From NCBI GenBank assembly GCA_043816965.1, contig JBDRHK010000031.1, positions 1 to 41,513 of the forward strand: a stretch of 41,513 nt of DNA, read 5' to 3'. Source of the DNA: Candidatus Iainarchaeum sp. (GTDB lineage Archaea > Iainarchaeota > Iainarchaeia > Iainarchaeales > JAFCCJ01). Positions 27,001-30,000 of the stretch are shown here, in pieces. Made by a program: the position numbers. Every line of letters starts with the position of its first letter. The first letter of the stretch is position 1.

Positions 27001-30000
27001 GAAGGGGCAAAAATGAGAAAAGTGGCAGACTATTCCTCAGTCAAAGGGAGAAAATTAATTCCCCTGAAAGCAGACTACTCCACAATATCATTCCTGACGC
27101 AGACAATTCCTGATGGTAAAAAAGTGATTGAAAAACTAAAAGATTTGGGGAAAATTTCCGGAAAAGAATCAAAAGAAGAGATGAATTTCATCACTGAAAG
27201 GATTGATAAATCAAGGGAATGGATTCAGAATTTCGCGCCTGAAGAGGCAAGGTTCACAATACTGGAAACTGTTTCTGATGAGGTGAAAAAGAAACTTAAA
27301 GATAATGAAAAAAAAGCACTTTCCCAAATCCCCGGAATTTTAAAGGAAGGAATCAGCGAGGAGGAGTTGGGCAAGAAACTATTTGATATTGCGAATGAAA
27401 ACAAGATCCCCCCTAAAGAATTCTTCAAAGTATCCTATCTGGTTCTCCTAAACCGGGAGCGGGGCCCCAAATTAGCCACTCTAATCCTCGGAATTGGAAT
27501 TGACCGGTCAAAAGCGATTTTTGGGCAGCTGAAATAATTTTCTATTTTTTATTGAAAATTTTTGTGCCCGACAAATTTATATATAAGAAACAACATACTG
27601 GTCTGCATGCCTTTTAGCATGAAAAGCCCGGTTCTGGTTCCTGCTTTGGTAATTGTGGTGGTTCTGCTTGTTGCAATTATTTTAGGTTTATTGGTGCTGC
27701 CGTTGATTTTAGGTGATGGCCAACCAGTTCCTGGGGAACAAGAAAAAAAACCAGGGGAGGATTATGTGGCTCCAGAACCCCAAGATTGGGAAAACCCAAA
27801 AGGCACAGGGCTCACTGATGGAGGTGTCCCCATAGACCCAACTACTGGGGAAGTTGGAAGTCCATCTGCTAATCTTTTTTACTCAAAGAATTGCGGTGCA
27901 GGGCAGGCCATCCAGGGATTTGATTTGCAATCTTCCCAAAACCCGACATGCGTTTCAATAGAAAGCGGAAGATCTGGCACGGGGGATGTAATCAGTCCTC
28001 CTCCAGAAACCGGTGGAGACGAGCCAACAGGCGGTTCTGAAACACATTTCTCCAAAATTTGTGGTCCTGGGGAAGCGATTCAGTCGTTCAGCTCAGACCC
28101 CCTAGAAAACCCGACATGTGTTGAGGTTCCCTCTGAGGCAGGAACAACAATAGTTGAAGGCGAAGGCGTAACAATAGTTGACTATTCATGGAATTTAAGT
28201 GCAGATGGCTCAGAATCAGTAATAGATAATGGAGAAACTGTTGAGATTGAAGCAGGGGCGGGAATTTTGGTTTATAAGGAAGGAAATACTGTAAGCATCA
28301 CTGCAACAGAAGCTTTTGCAAAGTCTGTTTCATACATGAATGATTTCAAGCTTGTTGAGGCAAAGAAATTTCCAAACGAAATTAATGTTTCAGATGGACT
28401 CTCAGTAGGCCTGTTAGGAACTGGCGGAATTGACGTTTCCATAGATGAATCAGAAAACAGAGTCATAATCTCAAACACCAAACAATACGAGTATGGCACA
28501 TTCAAGGCAACATGCAATTCATCAGGCGTTGTTAACAACGACCCTTATGCGACCAGCCCTAGTGGTTTAATACATGTTGGGCAGTGCACTTCACAAGTAG
28601 TTTTGGTTTATTGCGAAAACGATGACGCAAAAATAATAAGTTATGGCGGCACCTGTGGAAACGCATATATTAAGGGCATCTACCCATATAGGCGAACAGA
28701 GCCCGCAGATAGCTGGCAGGACTTTGGGGGGATAGATACTGTCGAGCTAGAATGCAGTGCTGCAACTTCCAAAACCGTCTTTATAACCTGTATGAGAGAA
28801 AAGGCCTAATTTTTACTAAATTAAAGAATAATTTAGGTCAAAATCGATTTTTGGGCAGCTGAAATAATTTCATTTCGCACCGGAAACCCACTCCCGAAAT
28901 CAATTAAGAAGGGAATAAACTTATTTTTTTGATGCGAAAGTTGTCCCCGCTACACGTAGAACAAATCCGAAATCTTAGGAAAAATGGATTGGCGTACAAA
29001 AAGATTGCCAGAAGATTGCAAATAAGCCCTTCAACAGTCAGCAAATATTCAAGAAACATAATTCTGTCTAGAGAAAAGAAAAAACAACTAGAGGAAAACC
29101 AAAGTAAAAACCGACAAAAATTTGCGTCCAATTATGCTAGAGAGAAGCCAATTAAACTACCAAAGTTTGATGAAAATTTCGCTAATTTATTAGGCCACTT
29201 ATTTTTTGATGGATCAGTTAGTTATCATAATGGAAAATTTGTTTTATCATATACAAACTCATCTAAAAAAGCCATTAATTCCTTTAATAAAAAAATAGAT
29301 TCTTGTTTTGGATTGACGCCTTCAAAGATTTATAAAGTGAAAGGCAAAAACACAGATTGGTTTATGGCACAGACCTATTCAAAAAAAGCGTATTCTTATT
29401 TGAAATCAATTTCATGCTCATTCAGTACGTCTGAAGGAATCGGAATTCCGAAAGAAATAATCAATTCTAATTTTTCAATGAAAGCATCTTTCTTAAGGGC
29501 CTTCTGGGACGATGAAGGAAGCATATCTAACACAAGCGAGCTAACAGGCACATCCAATAGTGAGAAAATGATTGATGATTTAATAACAATCCATAAAGAA
29601 TTTGGAATCATTTGTTCAAAATATAGGCAAGTTAAAGAAATGGGGAAAGATATTTTTCACCTTAGAATTAATGGGAATGAAGATAACTTTTCCAGATTTA
29701 TTGAGAAAATAGGGTTTGAGCATGCAATTATAACAAGAGGCCATCACATAGGAAAGTATAAAAAAGATGTATTAAGGAAATCTATGGGGAGATACCGATA
29801 GGTCGTGGGTTCGAATCCCTCCGGGCTCGTTCTGGGCCCGTAGCTCAGTCTGGCAGAGCAATCGGCTCTTAGCCACGCTTTAAAAGACTTAGTAGTAAGA
29901 AATTAATAGTAATGGGAAGGTAGCTCAGTCTGGGAGAGCACATGATGGGAACAAGTCGATTCCTTTAATGGTTTGGTTTTTCTCATGTGAAGCTGAAGAT

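What a model noticed while it worked through the whole genome (the two positions that open the first line are those of the whole stretch)
29784..29880. Circularly permuted tRNA-Lys(CUU) gene fused to the end of a homing endonuclease gene
At C31:29794-29871 the 3' half of a tRNA-Lys(CUU) (anticodon-stem 3' strand CCGAT, variable loop, T arm, acceptor 3' strand CGGGCTC, discriminator G) lies upstream of its own 5' half (GGGCCCG, D arm, anticodon stem ATCGG, loop CTCTTA), the two joined by only 4 nt (TTCT); no ordinary tRNA-Lys(CUU) gene was found. I read it as a circularly permuted tRNA gene whose transcript must be circularised at a bulge-helix-bulge and re-opened at the acceptor ends, and I propose that the LAGLIDADG gene g00538, whose stop codon lies inside the 3' half, caused the rearrangement. 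Permuted tRNA genes are known in archaea only from Thermofilum pendens; this would be the first in DPANN and the first tied to a h [...]
Evidence so far: Sequence read directly: ..GATA CCGAT AGGTC GTGGG TTCGAAT CCCTC CGGGCTC G TTCT GGGCCCG TA GCTC AGTCTGGCA GAGC A ATCGG CTCTTAG CC.. The acceptor forms 7 of 7 pairs (one G-U) and the anticodon stem 5 of 5. Rfam's YrlA model (T arm and acceptor before the D arm) aligns over C31:29797-29863 at 40.5 bits, E 3e-7. It is the only such hit in the genome; the next best has E 4.3. The 5'-half motif occurs twice in the genome: here and in the intron-bearing tRNA at C31:25669, which has its own 3' half. There is no 5' half upstream of g00538. A canonical bulge-helix-bulge can be drawn by hand between leader and trailer (sequence of call 94): stem AUCGG/CCGAU; 3-nt bulge A-U-A38; 4-bp helix C32-U-C-U35 x [...]
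(Added by a program. Inside this text positions count along the whole contig: contig position 1 is position 1 of the stretch shown here. "Call 12" and the like, gene names such as g00115 and contig names such as C1 are that model's own, and its searches are not shown. The text may have been shortened before it was handed on; [...] marks where a part breaks off. The agent that wrote the report below was given it as the finding of a first reader that could run no searches.)

Follow-up and report, generated by a model that had tools for sequence, protein, structure and literature searches.

The report
Back-to-front lysine tRNA gene beside endonuclease
A lysine tRNA gene in a small archaeal genome has its second half written before its first half, directly behind a mobile endonuclease gene, and its flanks carry the splice signal needed to rejoin the halves, so it is probably a young example of a rare gene type, though no RNA data confirm this.

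Summary
Window 29794-29829 is a tRNA-Lys 3' half (A38 to G73). A 4-nt linker follows at 29830-29833, then the matching 5' half (G1 to A37, anticodon CUU) at 29834-29871. Joined in a script, ARAGORN calls tRNA-Lys(ctt). The flanks draw a strict bulge-helix-bulge at 37/38, about 0.1% likely with random flanks. Two ordinary intron-bearing tRNA-Lys(CUU) genes elsewhere use the same design.

No other tRNA-Lys(CUU) lies in the 86%-complete assembly. The site where the congener keeps its normal gene is empty here. A contig from another dataset spans the join. A second spans it one letter short of the tool's bridging rule and lacks most of the endonuclease gene.

Relatives of this LAGLIDADG gene abutted a tRNA gene in all 13 loci with sequence beyond its 3' end, usually tRNA-Lys(CUU), so the link is real. 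That it caused the rearrangement is not shown.

Best reading: a functional, recently formed, circularly permuted tRNA-Lys(CUU) gene (0.62). Main rival: a dead relic of a tandem tRNA array (0.28).

There is no RNA evidence, and no other species was found with this arrangement. It is a new member of a known kind. It would be the first anticodon-loop type in Archaea; my literature searches found no report from DPANN.

The parts
28932..29801 (+). LAGLIDADG homing-endonuclease gene with an N-terminal helix-turn-helix. Its stop codon TAG (29799-29801) lies inside the tRNA 3' half.
   Evidence: ORF list. Pfam LAGLIDADG_3 50.5 bits (cut-off 22.5) at residues 184-262 and HTH_38 30.1 bits at residues 3-39. 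Homologues of 40-54% identity in the order. The exact protein starting at 28932 is a singleton cluster.
29757..29765 (+). TATA-like element inside the endonuclease ORF (codons of the conserved GKYKK motif). It is a candidate promoter for the permuted pre-tRNA.
   Evidence: TATAAA starts 37 nt before A38. Exact TTTAAA starts at -40 to -34 in 8 of 29 tRNA genes of this genome. A hexamer with at most one mismatch occurs at -45 to -28 in 18 of 29, against 14% at random sites. This is weak support only.
29785..29793 (+). Leader strand of the bulge-helix-bulge: outer helix 29785-29787, central helix 29788-29791, and the first two bulge nucleotides 29792-29793. The predicted cut is 29793|29794.
   Evidence: Pair check and energy evaluation. 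BHB score H=4, h'=5, h=3. Same design as the 37/38 introns of normal Lys(CUU) genes in L015 and L041.
29794..29829 (+). tRNA-Lys 3' half: A38, anticodon-stem 3' strand, variable loop, T arm, acceptor 3' strand, discriminator G73. No encoded CCA.
   Evidence: Bases 29801-29829 are 100% identical to the 3' part of the congener's normal tRNA-Lys(CUU), including the U50:U64 mismatch.
29830..29833 (+). Intervening sequence (linker) TTCT between G73 and G1.
   Evidence: Known permuted tRNA genes have linkers of 1 to 74-85 nt (PMC3218864, PMC3978253, passages read).
29834..29871 (+). tRNA-Lys(CUU) 5' half: acceptor 5' strand, D arm, anticodon-stem 5' strand, and anticodon loop up to A37.
   Evidence: The first 27 nt are identical to the tRNA-Lys(UUU) gene at 25669.
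29872..29875 (+). Trailer strand of the BHB: third bulge nucleotide G (29872) and outer helix 29873-29875. The predicted cut is 29871|29872.
29879..29886 (+). Promoter-like TTTAAAAG of the downstream tRNA-Phe, 7 nt after the 5' half. No T-run lies between, so read-through into tRNA-Phe is expected.
   Evidence: TTTAAA starts 35 nt before the tRNA-Phe G1. A homologous element lies inside the congener's endonuclease ORF.
29914..30088 (+). Neighbouring tRNA-Phe(GAA) gene, interrupted, apparently by two introns. It is the third member of the conserved Lys-Lys-Phe cluster.
   Evidence: Infernal 38.1 bits. Read by eye. Homologous to the congener's gene. Exact intron boundaries were not resolved.
28836..28871 (+). 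Second copy of the last 35 nt of the LysRS gene, and the empty site (28870|28871) where the congener has its promoter and normal tRNA-Lys(CUU) gene.
   Evidence: Synteny BLAST against G001. Sequences read.
25669..25827 (+). tRNA-Lys(UUU) gene, the only other Lys tRNA found. It is interrupted, and its anticodon loop lies on a small middle exon.
   Evidence: Infernal 39.5 bits. The congener's intron-less orthologue was read. The first intron has a strict BHB of 4,4,4.

Best explanation
This is a functional, circularly permuted tRNA-Lys(CUU) gene of the anticodon-loop type, with its junction at 37/38. All steps of the mechanism are inferred. Transcription starts a few bases upstream of 29794, either from the TATA-like element at 29757-29765 inside the endonuclease ORF or by read-through of the endonuclease mRNA. 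The transcript carries leader, 3' half, UUCU, 5' half and trailer, and probably runs on into tRNA-Phe. The acceptor, T, D and anticodon stems form across the two halves. The leader (29785-29793) and trailer (29872-29875) complete a bulge-helix-bulge on top of the anticodon stem. The splicing endonuclease cuts at 29793|29794 and 29871|29872. RtcB joins A37 to A38, giving a 78-nt circle. RNase P then cuts before G1, a 3' nuclease removes UUCU after G73, and CCA is added. The gene probably arose recently from a tight tandem pair of Lys tRNA genes lying between the endonuclease gene and tRNA-Phe, through loss of the outer halves. The endonuclease gene habitually sits against tRNA genes, but it is not shown to have caused the event.
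For: (1) The halves are complete and exactly complementary, and ARAGORN calls tRNA-Lys(ctt) on the joined slices. The positions I recall as invariant (U8, A14, G18, G19, U33, G53, T54, T55, C56, A58, C61) are all present by reading. (2) The BHB is strict, with H=4, h'=5, h=3. Flanks drawn at random from the genome give H=4 with h>=3 in 0.10% of 400,000 trials, and with h>=2 in 0.24%. Spliced tRNAs of this same genome have outer helices of only 2-6 bp: Arg(tcg) 2, Arg(gcg) 2, Tyr 2, Asp 3, Gln 4, Leu 6. (3) Two ordinary tRNA-Lys(CUU) genes with 37/38 introns use the same design, a 5' bulge of TAG and a central-helix partner GGAG followed by two nucleotides and A38. These are L015 next to the closest endonuclease homologue (4,5,7) and metagenomic L041 (4,5,5). 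(4) No other tRNA-Lys(CUU) was found in the assembly. AAG makes up 43% of 25,430 Lys codons in long ORFs. (5) The congener G001 keeps a normal-order tRNA-Lys(CUU) between the LysRS gene and the spacer before its endonuclease gene. That site is cleanly empty in the window at 28870|28871. (6) The T-stem U:U mismatch is shared with the congener's normal gene, so it is a lineage trait and not decay. (7) The arrangement exists outside this assembly. An X1 contig covers 29772-29950 with 2 differences. An X3 contig covers 29746-29863 with 2 differences, and its first 33 letters include 17 nt that match window 28873-28889. That allele therefore lacks most of the endonuclease ORF but keeps the permuted gene and about 48 nt upstream, including the TATA-like element. 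(8) TATAAA lies at -37 from A38, in the range (-40 to -34) where 8 of 29 tRNA genes carry an exact TTTAAA. (9) RtcB and the RNase P proteins Rpp30 and Pop5 are encoded. EndA is present in the congener and in two other relatives. (10) A 4-nt linker is within the known range of 1 to 74-85 nt (PMC3218864, PMC3978253).
Against: There is no RNA evidence of any kind. The cloverleaf-plus-BHB fold is 4.9 kcal/mol above the MFE. EndA (PF01974) was not found in this 86%-complete assembly even at E<=10, nor was RNase P RNA RF00373. tRNase Z and the CCA enzyme were not searched. The outer helix is only 3 bp, and would be shorter still if transcription starts near 29787. No other species shares the arrangement. 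None of the 28 YrlA-like loci examined (of 30 fetched, from 150 relatives) and none of 73 metagenomic loci is permuted, and the congener is normal. So nothing shows purifying selection on the permuted form. The BHB strands could be inherited ends of an ancestral intron, in which case their presence does not prove present use. Alternatively the leader may be native endonuclease coding sequence, since it resembles the congener's endonuclease 3' end. tRNA-Lys(UUU) might read AAG by wobble. The TATA-like match has a 14% background.
Confidence: 0.62

Rival explanations
1. This is a dead relic. [quoted passage not shown] Rearrangements around the endonuclease gene removed the outer halves. It is not processed into a tRNA. 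AAG is read by tRNA-Lys(UUU) or by a Lys(CUU) gene in the missing 14% of the genome.
For: Tight Lys-Lys-Phe arrays are the rule in this order. 18 of 28 YrlA-like loci are Lys(UUU)+Lys(CUU) pairs, and 17 of those are followed by Phe. Spacers can be as short as 3-4 nt (G007), so a '3' half, short spacer, 5' half' join pre-exists in every such array. The locus is visibly unstable: the ancestral tRNA site is deleted, a 1.3-kb insertion is flanked by 35-nt direct repeats, and the endonuclease type has been replaced. No other species has the permuted form. There are no RNA data. EndA is not in the assembly.
Against: Two independent losses would have to stop within a few bases of the same tRNA position, leaving neither gap nor overlap. 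Both would also have to spare just the 9 + 4 flanking nucleotides that make a strict BHB, which occurs by chance about 0.1% of the time. Every stem and every recalled invariant position is intact. The normal copy at the ancestral site is gone. The unit persists in two other metagenomic populations, one of which has lost the endonuclease ORF but kept the unit and its upstream 48 nt. AAG makes up 43% of Lys codons.
Confidence: 0.28
2. This is a split tRNA made from two transcripts. The 3' half is made as the tail of the endonuclease mRNA and the 5' half from its own start. The two pair and are trans-spliced as in Nanoarchaeum, without a circular intermediate.
For: The same BHB would serve trans-splicing. 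Split tRNA-Lys(CUU) genes are known in N. equitans and Staphylothermus (Table 1 of PMC3218864, passages read).
Against: Only 4 nt separate the halves. The 60 nt before G1 are the G+C-rich 3' half, with no TATA-like element. Known split halves lie at separate loci, 161 nt to more than 100 kb apart by the start coordinates in Table 1 of PMC3218864. As I recall, in N. equitans they also have 12-14-nt complementary flanks, whereas here the flanks pair over only 4 + 3 bp.
Confidence: 0.05
3. This is an assembly artefact: a chimeric join at the 27-nt repeat shared by the Lys tRNA genes in a single MAG.
For: The contig comes from a MAG. The 5' halves at 25669 and 29834 share 27 identical bases.
Against: An X1 contig from another dataset spans 29772-29950 with 58 and 117 letters on either side of the linker, 2 differences and no gaps. 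An X3 contig spans 29746-29863. It has 84 letters before the linker and 30 after it, one short of the tool's 31-letter rule if counted from G1.
Confidence: 0.02
4. This is a YrlA-type Y RNA-like gene, as the Rfam hit would suggest.
For: RF02553 aligns at 40.5 bits.
Against: The score is below the gathering score of 69. Only model positions 23-85 of 114 align, which is the tRNA-like module alone. The same model hits ordinary tandem tRNA pairs in 34 relatives, none over the cut-off.
Confidence: 0.01

Closest known systems
[quoted passage not shown]
   Same: Both are archaeal. The 3' half lies upstream of the 5' half on one strand with a very short intervening sequence (7 and 1 nt there, 4 nt here). 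A BHB forms at the junction of leader and trailer, and a single upstream promoter is inferred.
   Different: The junction there is at 59/60 in the T loop, here at 37/38 in the anticodon loop. Those genes encode CCA and also carry a canonical intron; this one does neither. That host is a hyperthermophilic crenarchaeon; this one is a small-genome archaeon whose nearest LysRS cluster is mostly Nanobdellota. Here a congener still has the normal gene, so the event looks recent.
Type II (37/38) permuted tRNA genes of green algae and a chlorarachniophyte nucleomorph, and the permuted genes of Cyanidioschyzon merolae (review PMC3978253; passages read)
   Same: The junction position and the proposed pathway are the same: BHB cleavage, ligation to a circular intermediate, then removal of the intervening sequence by RNase P and tRNase Z and CCA addition. 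The proposed origin is also the same: a tandem of intron-bearing genes followed by loss of the outer halves.
   Different: Those are eukaryotic nuclear genes with experimental proof of the circular intermediate. This is an archaeal MAG locus with no RNA data, and it overlaps a protein-coding gene.
Split (trans-spliced) tRNA-Lys(CUU) of Nanoarchaeum equitans and Staphylothermus (Table 1 of PMC3218864)
   Same: The isoacceptor is the same. The halves are rejoined at a BHB by the splicing endonuclease and ligase, and one of these hosts is DPANN-related.
   Different: The split there is at 30/31, the halves lie at separate loci and each is transcribed separately. Here the halves are 4 nt apart in permuted order with the junction at 37/38.
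Ordinary tRNA-Lys(CUU) genes with a 37/38 intron (L015 in genome G129, L041 in a metagenomic contig)
   Same: The BHB layout around the anticodon loop is identical: a 5' bulge of TAG, and GGAG followed by two nucleotides and A38. L015 also lies directly behind the closest homologue of the endonuclease gene (54% identity).
   Different: Their exon order is normal and their outer helices are longer (7 and 5 bp against 3).
Rfam YrlA (RF02553)
   Same: It has a tRNA-like module in which the T arm and acceptor precede the D arm, which is why the model aligns.
   Different: The hit is below the gathering score, and the rest of the YrlA model is absent. As I recall, YrlA is a bacterial RNA, whereas this genome is archaeal.

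Membership tests
Circularly permuted tRNA gene | The 3' half lies upstream of the 5' half on the same strand, joined by a short intervening sequence at the acceptor ends. | tested here: met
   29794-29829, TTCT, 29834-29871. The linker is within the published range of 1 to 74-85 nt.
Circularly permuted tRNA gene | The two halves together give one complete cloverleaf with a sense anticodon. | tested here: met
   ARAGORN calls tRNA-Lys(ctt), 74 nt, on the joined slices. There is one U50:U64 mismatch, shared with the congener's normal gene.
Circularly permuted tRNA gene | Leader and trailer form a bulge-helix-bulge (or a relaxed form) at the junction of the halves. | tested here: met
   H=4, h'=5, h=3, with a chance rate of 0.10%. 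The layout matches normal Lys(CUU) introns. It is not the MFE fold.
Circularly permuted tRNA gene | A single promoter lies upstream of the 3' half, with none before the 5' half. | tested here: inconclusive
   TATAAA lies at -37 from A38, with a 14% background. There is no AT-rich element in the 60 nt before G1.
Circularly permuted tRNA gene | A circular intermediate and a mature tRNA are detected in RNA. | not testable with these tools
   No RNA holder was listed. All laid runs are DNA contigs.
Circularly permuted tRNA gene | The host encodes the splicing endonuclease, RNA ligase and end-processing enzymes. | tested here: inconclusive
   RtcB, Rpp30 and Pop5 were found. EndA PF01974 and RNase P RNA were not found in the 86%-complete assembly. 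EndA was found in the congener G001 and in G002 and G129. tRNase Z and the CCA enzyme were not searched.
Split (trans-spliced) tRNA | The halves lie at separate loci, each with its own promoter and with long complementary flanks. | tested here: not met
   The halves are 4 nt apart. There is no promoter-like element before G1, and the flanks pair over only 4 + 3 bp.
tRNA-gene fragment left by an integrated element (att duplicate) | A partial 3' copy repeats part of an intact tRNA gene at the other end of an element that carries an integrase. | tested here: not met
   There is no intact Lys(CUU) partner anywhere in the assembly. The ORFs between 25828 and 29793 are LysRS, a 415-aa ORF with no Pfam match, and the endonuclease. 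No integrase was seen among them.
Rfam YrlA (RF02553) | The score reaches the gathering threshold over the whole model. | tested here: not met
   40.5 bits against 69, covering model positions 23-85 of 114.
LAGLIDADG homing endonuclease (the neighbouring gene) | A LAGLIDADG domain scores above the Pfam cut-off. | tested here: met
   PF14528, 50.5 bits against a cut-off of 22.5. Cleavage activity and target site were not tested.

The most novel reading that the evidence does not exclude
The mobile endonuclease gene and the tRNA have become interdependent. The last roughly 45 nt of the endonuclease ORF would supply both the promoter and the leader strand of the BHB for the cell's only tRNA-Lys(CUU). 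The host then cannot lose that end of the selfish gene. Conversely, BHB cleavage at 29793|29794 would strip the stop codon (29799-29801) from any read-through endonuclease mRNA. tRNA maturation and endonuclease expression would then compete on one transcript. The endonuclease-deleted allele in run X3, which keeps exactly this 3' end, would be the footprint of that constraint.
Probability: 0.2. Interest if true: 0.8.

Novelty: new member of a known kind. Interest (0 to 1): 0.62.

Why it matters
Permuted tRNA genes are rare. They are known from a few algae and from two genes in one crenarchaeon, and how they arise has only been modelled. Here a congener still has the normal gene. The order-wide ancestral layout (Lys-Lys-Phe tandem) is visible, and alleles with and without the endonuclease gene seem to coexist. 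The duplication-and-loss model could therefore be tested on a natural, recent case.

If the gene is functional, it extends permuted tRNAs to small-genome, DPANN-like archaea. It would also be the first archaeal junction at 37/38.

It also has a practical consequence. Standard tRNA finders missed this gene and mis-called two neighbouring multi-intron tRNAs. "Missing" tRNA isoacceptors in such MAGs should therefore not be read as gene loss.

Tried and rejected
- No RNA holder was listed for the stretch, so expression could not be examined.
- The laid runs are contigs, and the table did not show where the two differences of the X1 and X3 contigs lie.
- An exact-pattern scan of genome contigs with a 26-mer of the 3' half found nothing.
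- The search for related loci with the endonuclease protein in genome contigs confirmed no relative.
- A metagenome scan with a 20-mer of the anticodon arm gave 73 loci, all ordinary Lys(CUU) genes. That arm is widespread, so I dropped my early idea that compensatory changes against the congener show selection on the permuted gene.
- The exact endonuclease protein is a singleton cluster, so its C-terminal tail could not trace the junction in other samples.
- The YrlA model used as a permuted-tRNA detector over 150 relatives returned only tandem tRNA pairs. In 4 of the 28 loci the second tRNA was not called by ARAGORN, but the first was complete, so they are not permuted. One of the 30 fetched loci was the window itself and one (L124, G007) was not put through the script; I had read it earlier as a tandem.
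- RNAfold does not return the cloverleaf-plus-BHB as the MFE. I treat this as uninformative, because the mature tRNA's MFE is not a cloverleaf either.
- I tried to decide whether the BHB leader strand descends from an intron or is native endonuclease sequence. I compared it with L015, L019 and the congener's endonuclease 3' end. The stretches are too short to decide.
- I could not derive the present block order (spacer, endonuclease, 3' half, 5' half) from the congener's order by a single event.
- The second introns of tRNA-Lys(UUU) and tRNA-Phe did not fit my strict BHB rule, and their boundaries stay unresolved.
- The idea that the conserved GK(Y/F/L)KK codons of this endonuclease family double as the TATA box of the downstream tRNA fits only some relatives. 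I measured this by eye. The distance from the A-run to the tRNA start is 28 nt here, and 31, 34, 39 and 40 nt in L027, L021, L017 and L022, but 48 and 56 nt in L015 and L016. It remains a lead only.
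Full report
WHAT IS THERE

- 29794-29829: A38, the anticodon-stem 3' strand, a 5-nt variable loop, the T arm, the acceptor 3' strand and discriminator G73.
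- 29830-29833: the linker TTCT.
- 29834-29871: G1, the acceptor 5' strand, the D arm, the anticodon-stem 5' strand and the loop up to A37, with anticodon CTT.

ARAGORN run on the window as it stands sees nothing here. When a script joins the two slices in tRNA order, ARAGORN calls a 74-nt tRNA-Lys(ctt). All stems are paired except U50:U64 in the T stem.

The upstream ORF (28929 or 28932 to 29801) is a LAGLIDADG_3 protein with an N-terminal helix-turn-helix. Its TAG stop lies at 29799-29801, inside the 3' half.

Rfam's YrlA model aligns over 29797-29863 at 40.5 bits, below its gathering score of 69 and covering only the tRNA-like part of the model. This is a detector effect, not a YrlA gene. 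Across 150 relatives the same model hits ordinary tandem tRNA pairs.

IS IT THE ONLY tRNA-Lys(CUU)?

ARAGORN with introns allowed finds 33 tRNAs in the 109 contigs, none of them Lys. Infernal RF00005 finds 28. A regex for Lys anticodon arms finds none with tRNA flanks.

BLAST of the two halves against the genome finds them only in contig C31. The hits are this locus, the tRNA at 25669-25827, the tRNA at 29914-30088 (5' half only), and a T-arm match to a tRNA-Arg on C22.

The gene at 25669 is tRNA-Lys(UUU). The congener's intron-less orthologue shows this. In the window it is interrupted, with the anticodon loop on a small middle exon, and ARAGORN mis-calls it Val.

AAG makes up 43% of 25,430 Lys codons in long ORFs. 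The genome is 86% complete, so a second gene cannot be excluded. The synteny below argues against one.

THE SPLICE MOTIF

With the anticodon stem as the exon helix:
- Leader 29788-29791 pairs with loop positions 32-35 (three Watson-Crick pairs and one G-U).
- 29792-29794 and 29870-29872 are the two 3-nt bulges.
- 29785-29787 pairs with 29873-29875.

Under the geometry I recall (a cut after the second bulge nucleotide), the cuts fall at 29793|29794 and 29871|29872, which is exactly 37/38.

With flanks drawn at random from the genome, the central helix plus an outer helix of at least 3 bp appears in 0.10% of 400,000 trials, and with at least 2 bp in 0.24%.

As a positive control, the same rule recovers the introns of six tRNAs of this genome. 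Their outer helices are 2-6 bp, so 3 bp is normal here.

Two ordinary tRNA-Lys(CUU) genes with 37/38 introns have the same layout, down to the bulge TAG and the partner GGAG followed by two nucleotides and A38:
- L015, directly behind the closest homologue of the endonuclease.
- L041, a metagenomic contig.

The fold is 4.9 kcal/mol above the MFE. The mature tRNA's MFE is not a cloverleaf either, so I give this little weight.

CONTEXT IN RELATIVES

In this order the ancestral layout is a tight cluster of tRNA-Lys(UUU), tRNA-Lys(CUU) and tRNA-Phe(GAA).
- 18 of 28 loci examined hold the Lys pair, and 17 of those are followed by Phe. These loci were found through their tandem structure, so the sample is biased toward it.
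- In G007 the spacers are 3-4 nt, and the following secreted-protein gene is syntenic with window ORF 30143.

The same-genus genome G001 has this order:
- tRNA-Lys(UUU)
- class I LysRS
- promoter and a normal-order, interrupted tRNA-Lys(CUU)
- a spacer
- a 212-aa LAGLIDADG gene
- tRNA-Phe

The window has this order:
- tRNA-Lys(UUU)
- LysRS
- a 1.3-kb insertion flanked by 35-nt direct repeats of the LysRS end
- the same spacer, with nothing where G001 has its tRNA-Lys(CUU) (28870|28871)
- a different LAGLIDADG gene, 21% identical to G001's
- the permuted tRNA
- 7 nt, then the tRNA-Phe promoter and tRNA-Phe

Bases 29801-29829 are 100% identical to the 3' part of G001's tRNA-Lys(CUU), including the U:U mismatch. 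The mismatch is therefore a lineage trait.

THE ENDONUCLEASE

Homologues of 40-54% identity occur in at least 13 genomes of the order. I examined 14 loci (L015-L028). The contig of L020 ends at the gene's 3' end. In the other 13, a tRNA gene lies within about 60 nt of that 3' end:
- tRNA-Lys(CUU) in L015, L016, L022, L027 and L028.
- A Lys(UUU)-type tRNA in L021 and L026.
- tRNA-Phe in L017, L018 and L019.
- tRNA-Met on the other strand in L023, L024 and L025.

In L021, L022 and L027 the ORF reads into the tRNA and stops inside it. In L023 and L025 the tail likewise looks like the reverse strand of the abutting tRNA-Met. A stop codon inside tRNA sequence is therefore a habit of this family.

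It does not show causation. The HE-then-Lys(CUU)-then-Phe order of L027 is the likely immediate ancestor of the window's layout.

INDEPENDENT SUPPORT FOR THE JOIN

No run holds much of the stretch, but two contigs from other datasets matter.
- X1 record 1 is 180 nt at depth 2. It covers 29772-29950 with 2 differences and no gap. It spans leader, 3' half, linker, 5' half, trailer and the start of tRNA-Phe.
- X3 record 13 is 151 nt at depth 4. It covers 29746-29863 with 2 differences, which leaves 30 letters beyond the linker, one short of the tool's bridging rule.
- The first 33 letters of X3 record 13 do not fit at 29745. They contain a 17-mer that occurs once in the window, at 28873-28889, upstream of the endonuclease gene.
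- That allele therefore appears to have lost about 850 nt of the endonuclease ORF. It keeps the ORF's last roughly 48 nt and the permuted tRNA.
- It is a single short contig and could be chimeric.

PROMOTER AND MACHINERY

- Eight of 29 tRNA genes have an exact TTTAAA starting 40-34 nt before G1 (0.9% at random sites). 18 of 29 have a hexamer with at most one mismatch at -45 to -28 (14% at random).
- The permuted gene has TATAAA at -37 from A38, inside the codons of the conserved GKYKK motif. This is weak support for a start near 29786-29788.
- No T-run follows the 5' half, so the transcript would run into tRNA-Phe.
- RtcB (interrupted, apparently by an intein), Rpp30 and Pop5 are encoded.
- EndA and RNase P RNA were not found in this assembly.
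- EndA is present in G001 at a contig edge, and in G002 and G129.
- A genome with at least a dozen spliced tRNAs must have an EndA, so I read its absence as an assembly gap.

WEIGHING THE READINGS

Points for function:
- The two breakpoints coincide to the base.
- The only flanking nucleotides kept are those that make a strict BHB.
- Every stem and every recalled invariant base is intact.
- The normal copy at the ancestral site is gone.
- The unit survives in other populations, one of them without the endonuclease.

Points against:
- There is no RNA evidence.
- No second species has the arrangement. None of 73 metagenomic loci with the same anticodon arm and none of the 28 YrlA-like loci examined is permuted.
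- The BHB strands might simply be inherited intron ends.
- The leader also resembles the native 3' end of the congener's endonuclease gene, so its origin is open.

I put the functional permuted gene at 0.62, a dead tandem relic at 0.28, two-transcript trans-splicing at 0.05, an assembly artefact at 0.02 and YrlA at about 0.01.

COMPARISON WITH WHAT IS KNOWN

Permuted tRNA genes are established in Cyanidioschyzon, in green algae and a nucleomorph, and in Archaea only in Thermofilum pendens. The T. pendens genes are iMet and Tyr, with the junction at 59/60, linkers of 7 and 1 nt, and encoded CCA (PMC3218864 and PMC3978253, passages read).

The 37/38 type is described for green algae, not for Archaea (PMC3978253).

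The library searches gave the following:
- 'permuted tRNA' with 'archaea': 53 papers, 25 listed.
- With 'DPANN': 2 papers. I read passages of one (PMC5829648), which reports none. The other I saw only as a search listing.
- With 'homing endonuclease': 4 papers, 2 listed, both unrelated by title and abstract.
- With DPANN phylum names: none of the 15 listed papers holds the phrase.

I therefore found no prior report. The library lacks most subscription journals, and I did not read supplements.

PMC5829648 (passages read) notes that incomplete tRNA sets in DPANN genomes point to unidentified disrupted tRNA genes. This locus would be one.

The kind is known and the mechanism would be the known one, so this is a new member of a known kind. 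Its unusual features are the archaeal 37/38 junction, the overlap with a mobile endonuclease gene, and a visible recent origin.

Noticed in passing
window 25669-25827: tRNA-Lys(UUU) is interrupted, apparently by two introns at about 30/31 and 38/39, with the anticodon loop on a small middle exon of about 8 nt. ARAGORN mis-calls it tRNA-Val(aac). The congener's orthologue has no intron. The first intron has a strict BHB (4,4,4). The boundaries of the second did not fit my rule.
   Followed up: partly
window 29914-30088: tRNA-Phe(GAA) likewise appears to have two introns flanking a small exon that carries the anticodon loop. The congener's copy (L013 about 1231-1070, minus strand) has the same build. 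ARAGORN misses it, and Infernal finds it at 38.1 bits.
   Followed up: partly
window 27506-27540 and 28836-28870: A 35-nt direct repeat (33 of 34 compared bases identical) of the LysRS 3' end flanks a 1.3-kb insertion. The insertion carries a 415-aa ORF (27562-28809) with no Pfam match and is absent from the congener. The second repeat copy is 100% identical to the congener over 34 nt, although the region is otherwise about 85% identical.
   Followed up: partly
L021, L022, L023, L025, L027 and L013 (congener): In L021, L022 and L027 the ORFs of this endonuclease family run into the adjacent tRNA gene and stop inside it. In L023 and L025 the ORF tails look like the reverse strand of the abutting tRNA-Met. 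In the congener, the promoter-like TTTAAAAG of tRNA-Phe lies inside the last codons of its endonuclease ORF. In some relatives the A-rich codons of the conserved GK(Y/F/L)KK motif sit 31-40 nt before the tRNA start. These selfish genes may carry the promoter of the tRNA they displace.
   Followed up: partly
run X3, record 13, laid on window 29746-29863: This is a 151-nt metagenomic contig. It joins sequence found upstream of the endonuclease gene (a 17-mer at window 28873-28889) to the last roughly 48 nt of the ORF and the permuted tRNA. It looks like an allele with the endonuclease deleted.
   Followed up: partly
own genome C42:31153-33972: The RtcB ligase hit is split. Profile positions 1-50 and 49-426 lie about 1.5 kb apart inside one 984-aa open frame, which suggests an intein.
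   Followed up: no
own genome (whole assembly): The splicing endonuclease domain PF01974 and RNase P RNA RF00373 were not found, although many tRNA genes carry introns and Rpp30 and Pop5 are present. In the congener, EndA lies at a contig edge (G001:C38:3-254). The region may assemble poorly.
   Followed up: partly
L110 (G008:C48): Three tRNA genes (Ser, Lys(CUU), Asn) abut with zero spacer or a 1-nt overlap by ARAGORN coordinates. This is an extreme case of the tight tandem arrays in this order.
   Followed up: no
L053, L056, L074, L092, L098, L102 (metagenome contigs): Several otherwise normal tRNA-Lys(CUU) genes with the same anticodon arm carry an insertion inside the T loop, presumably a non-canonical intron near 59/60.
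   Followed up: no
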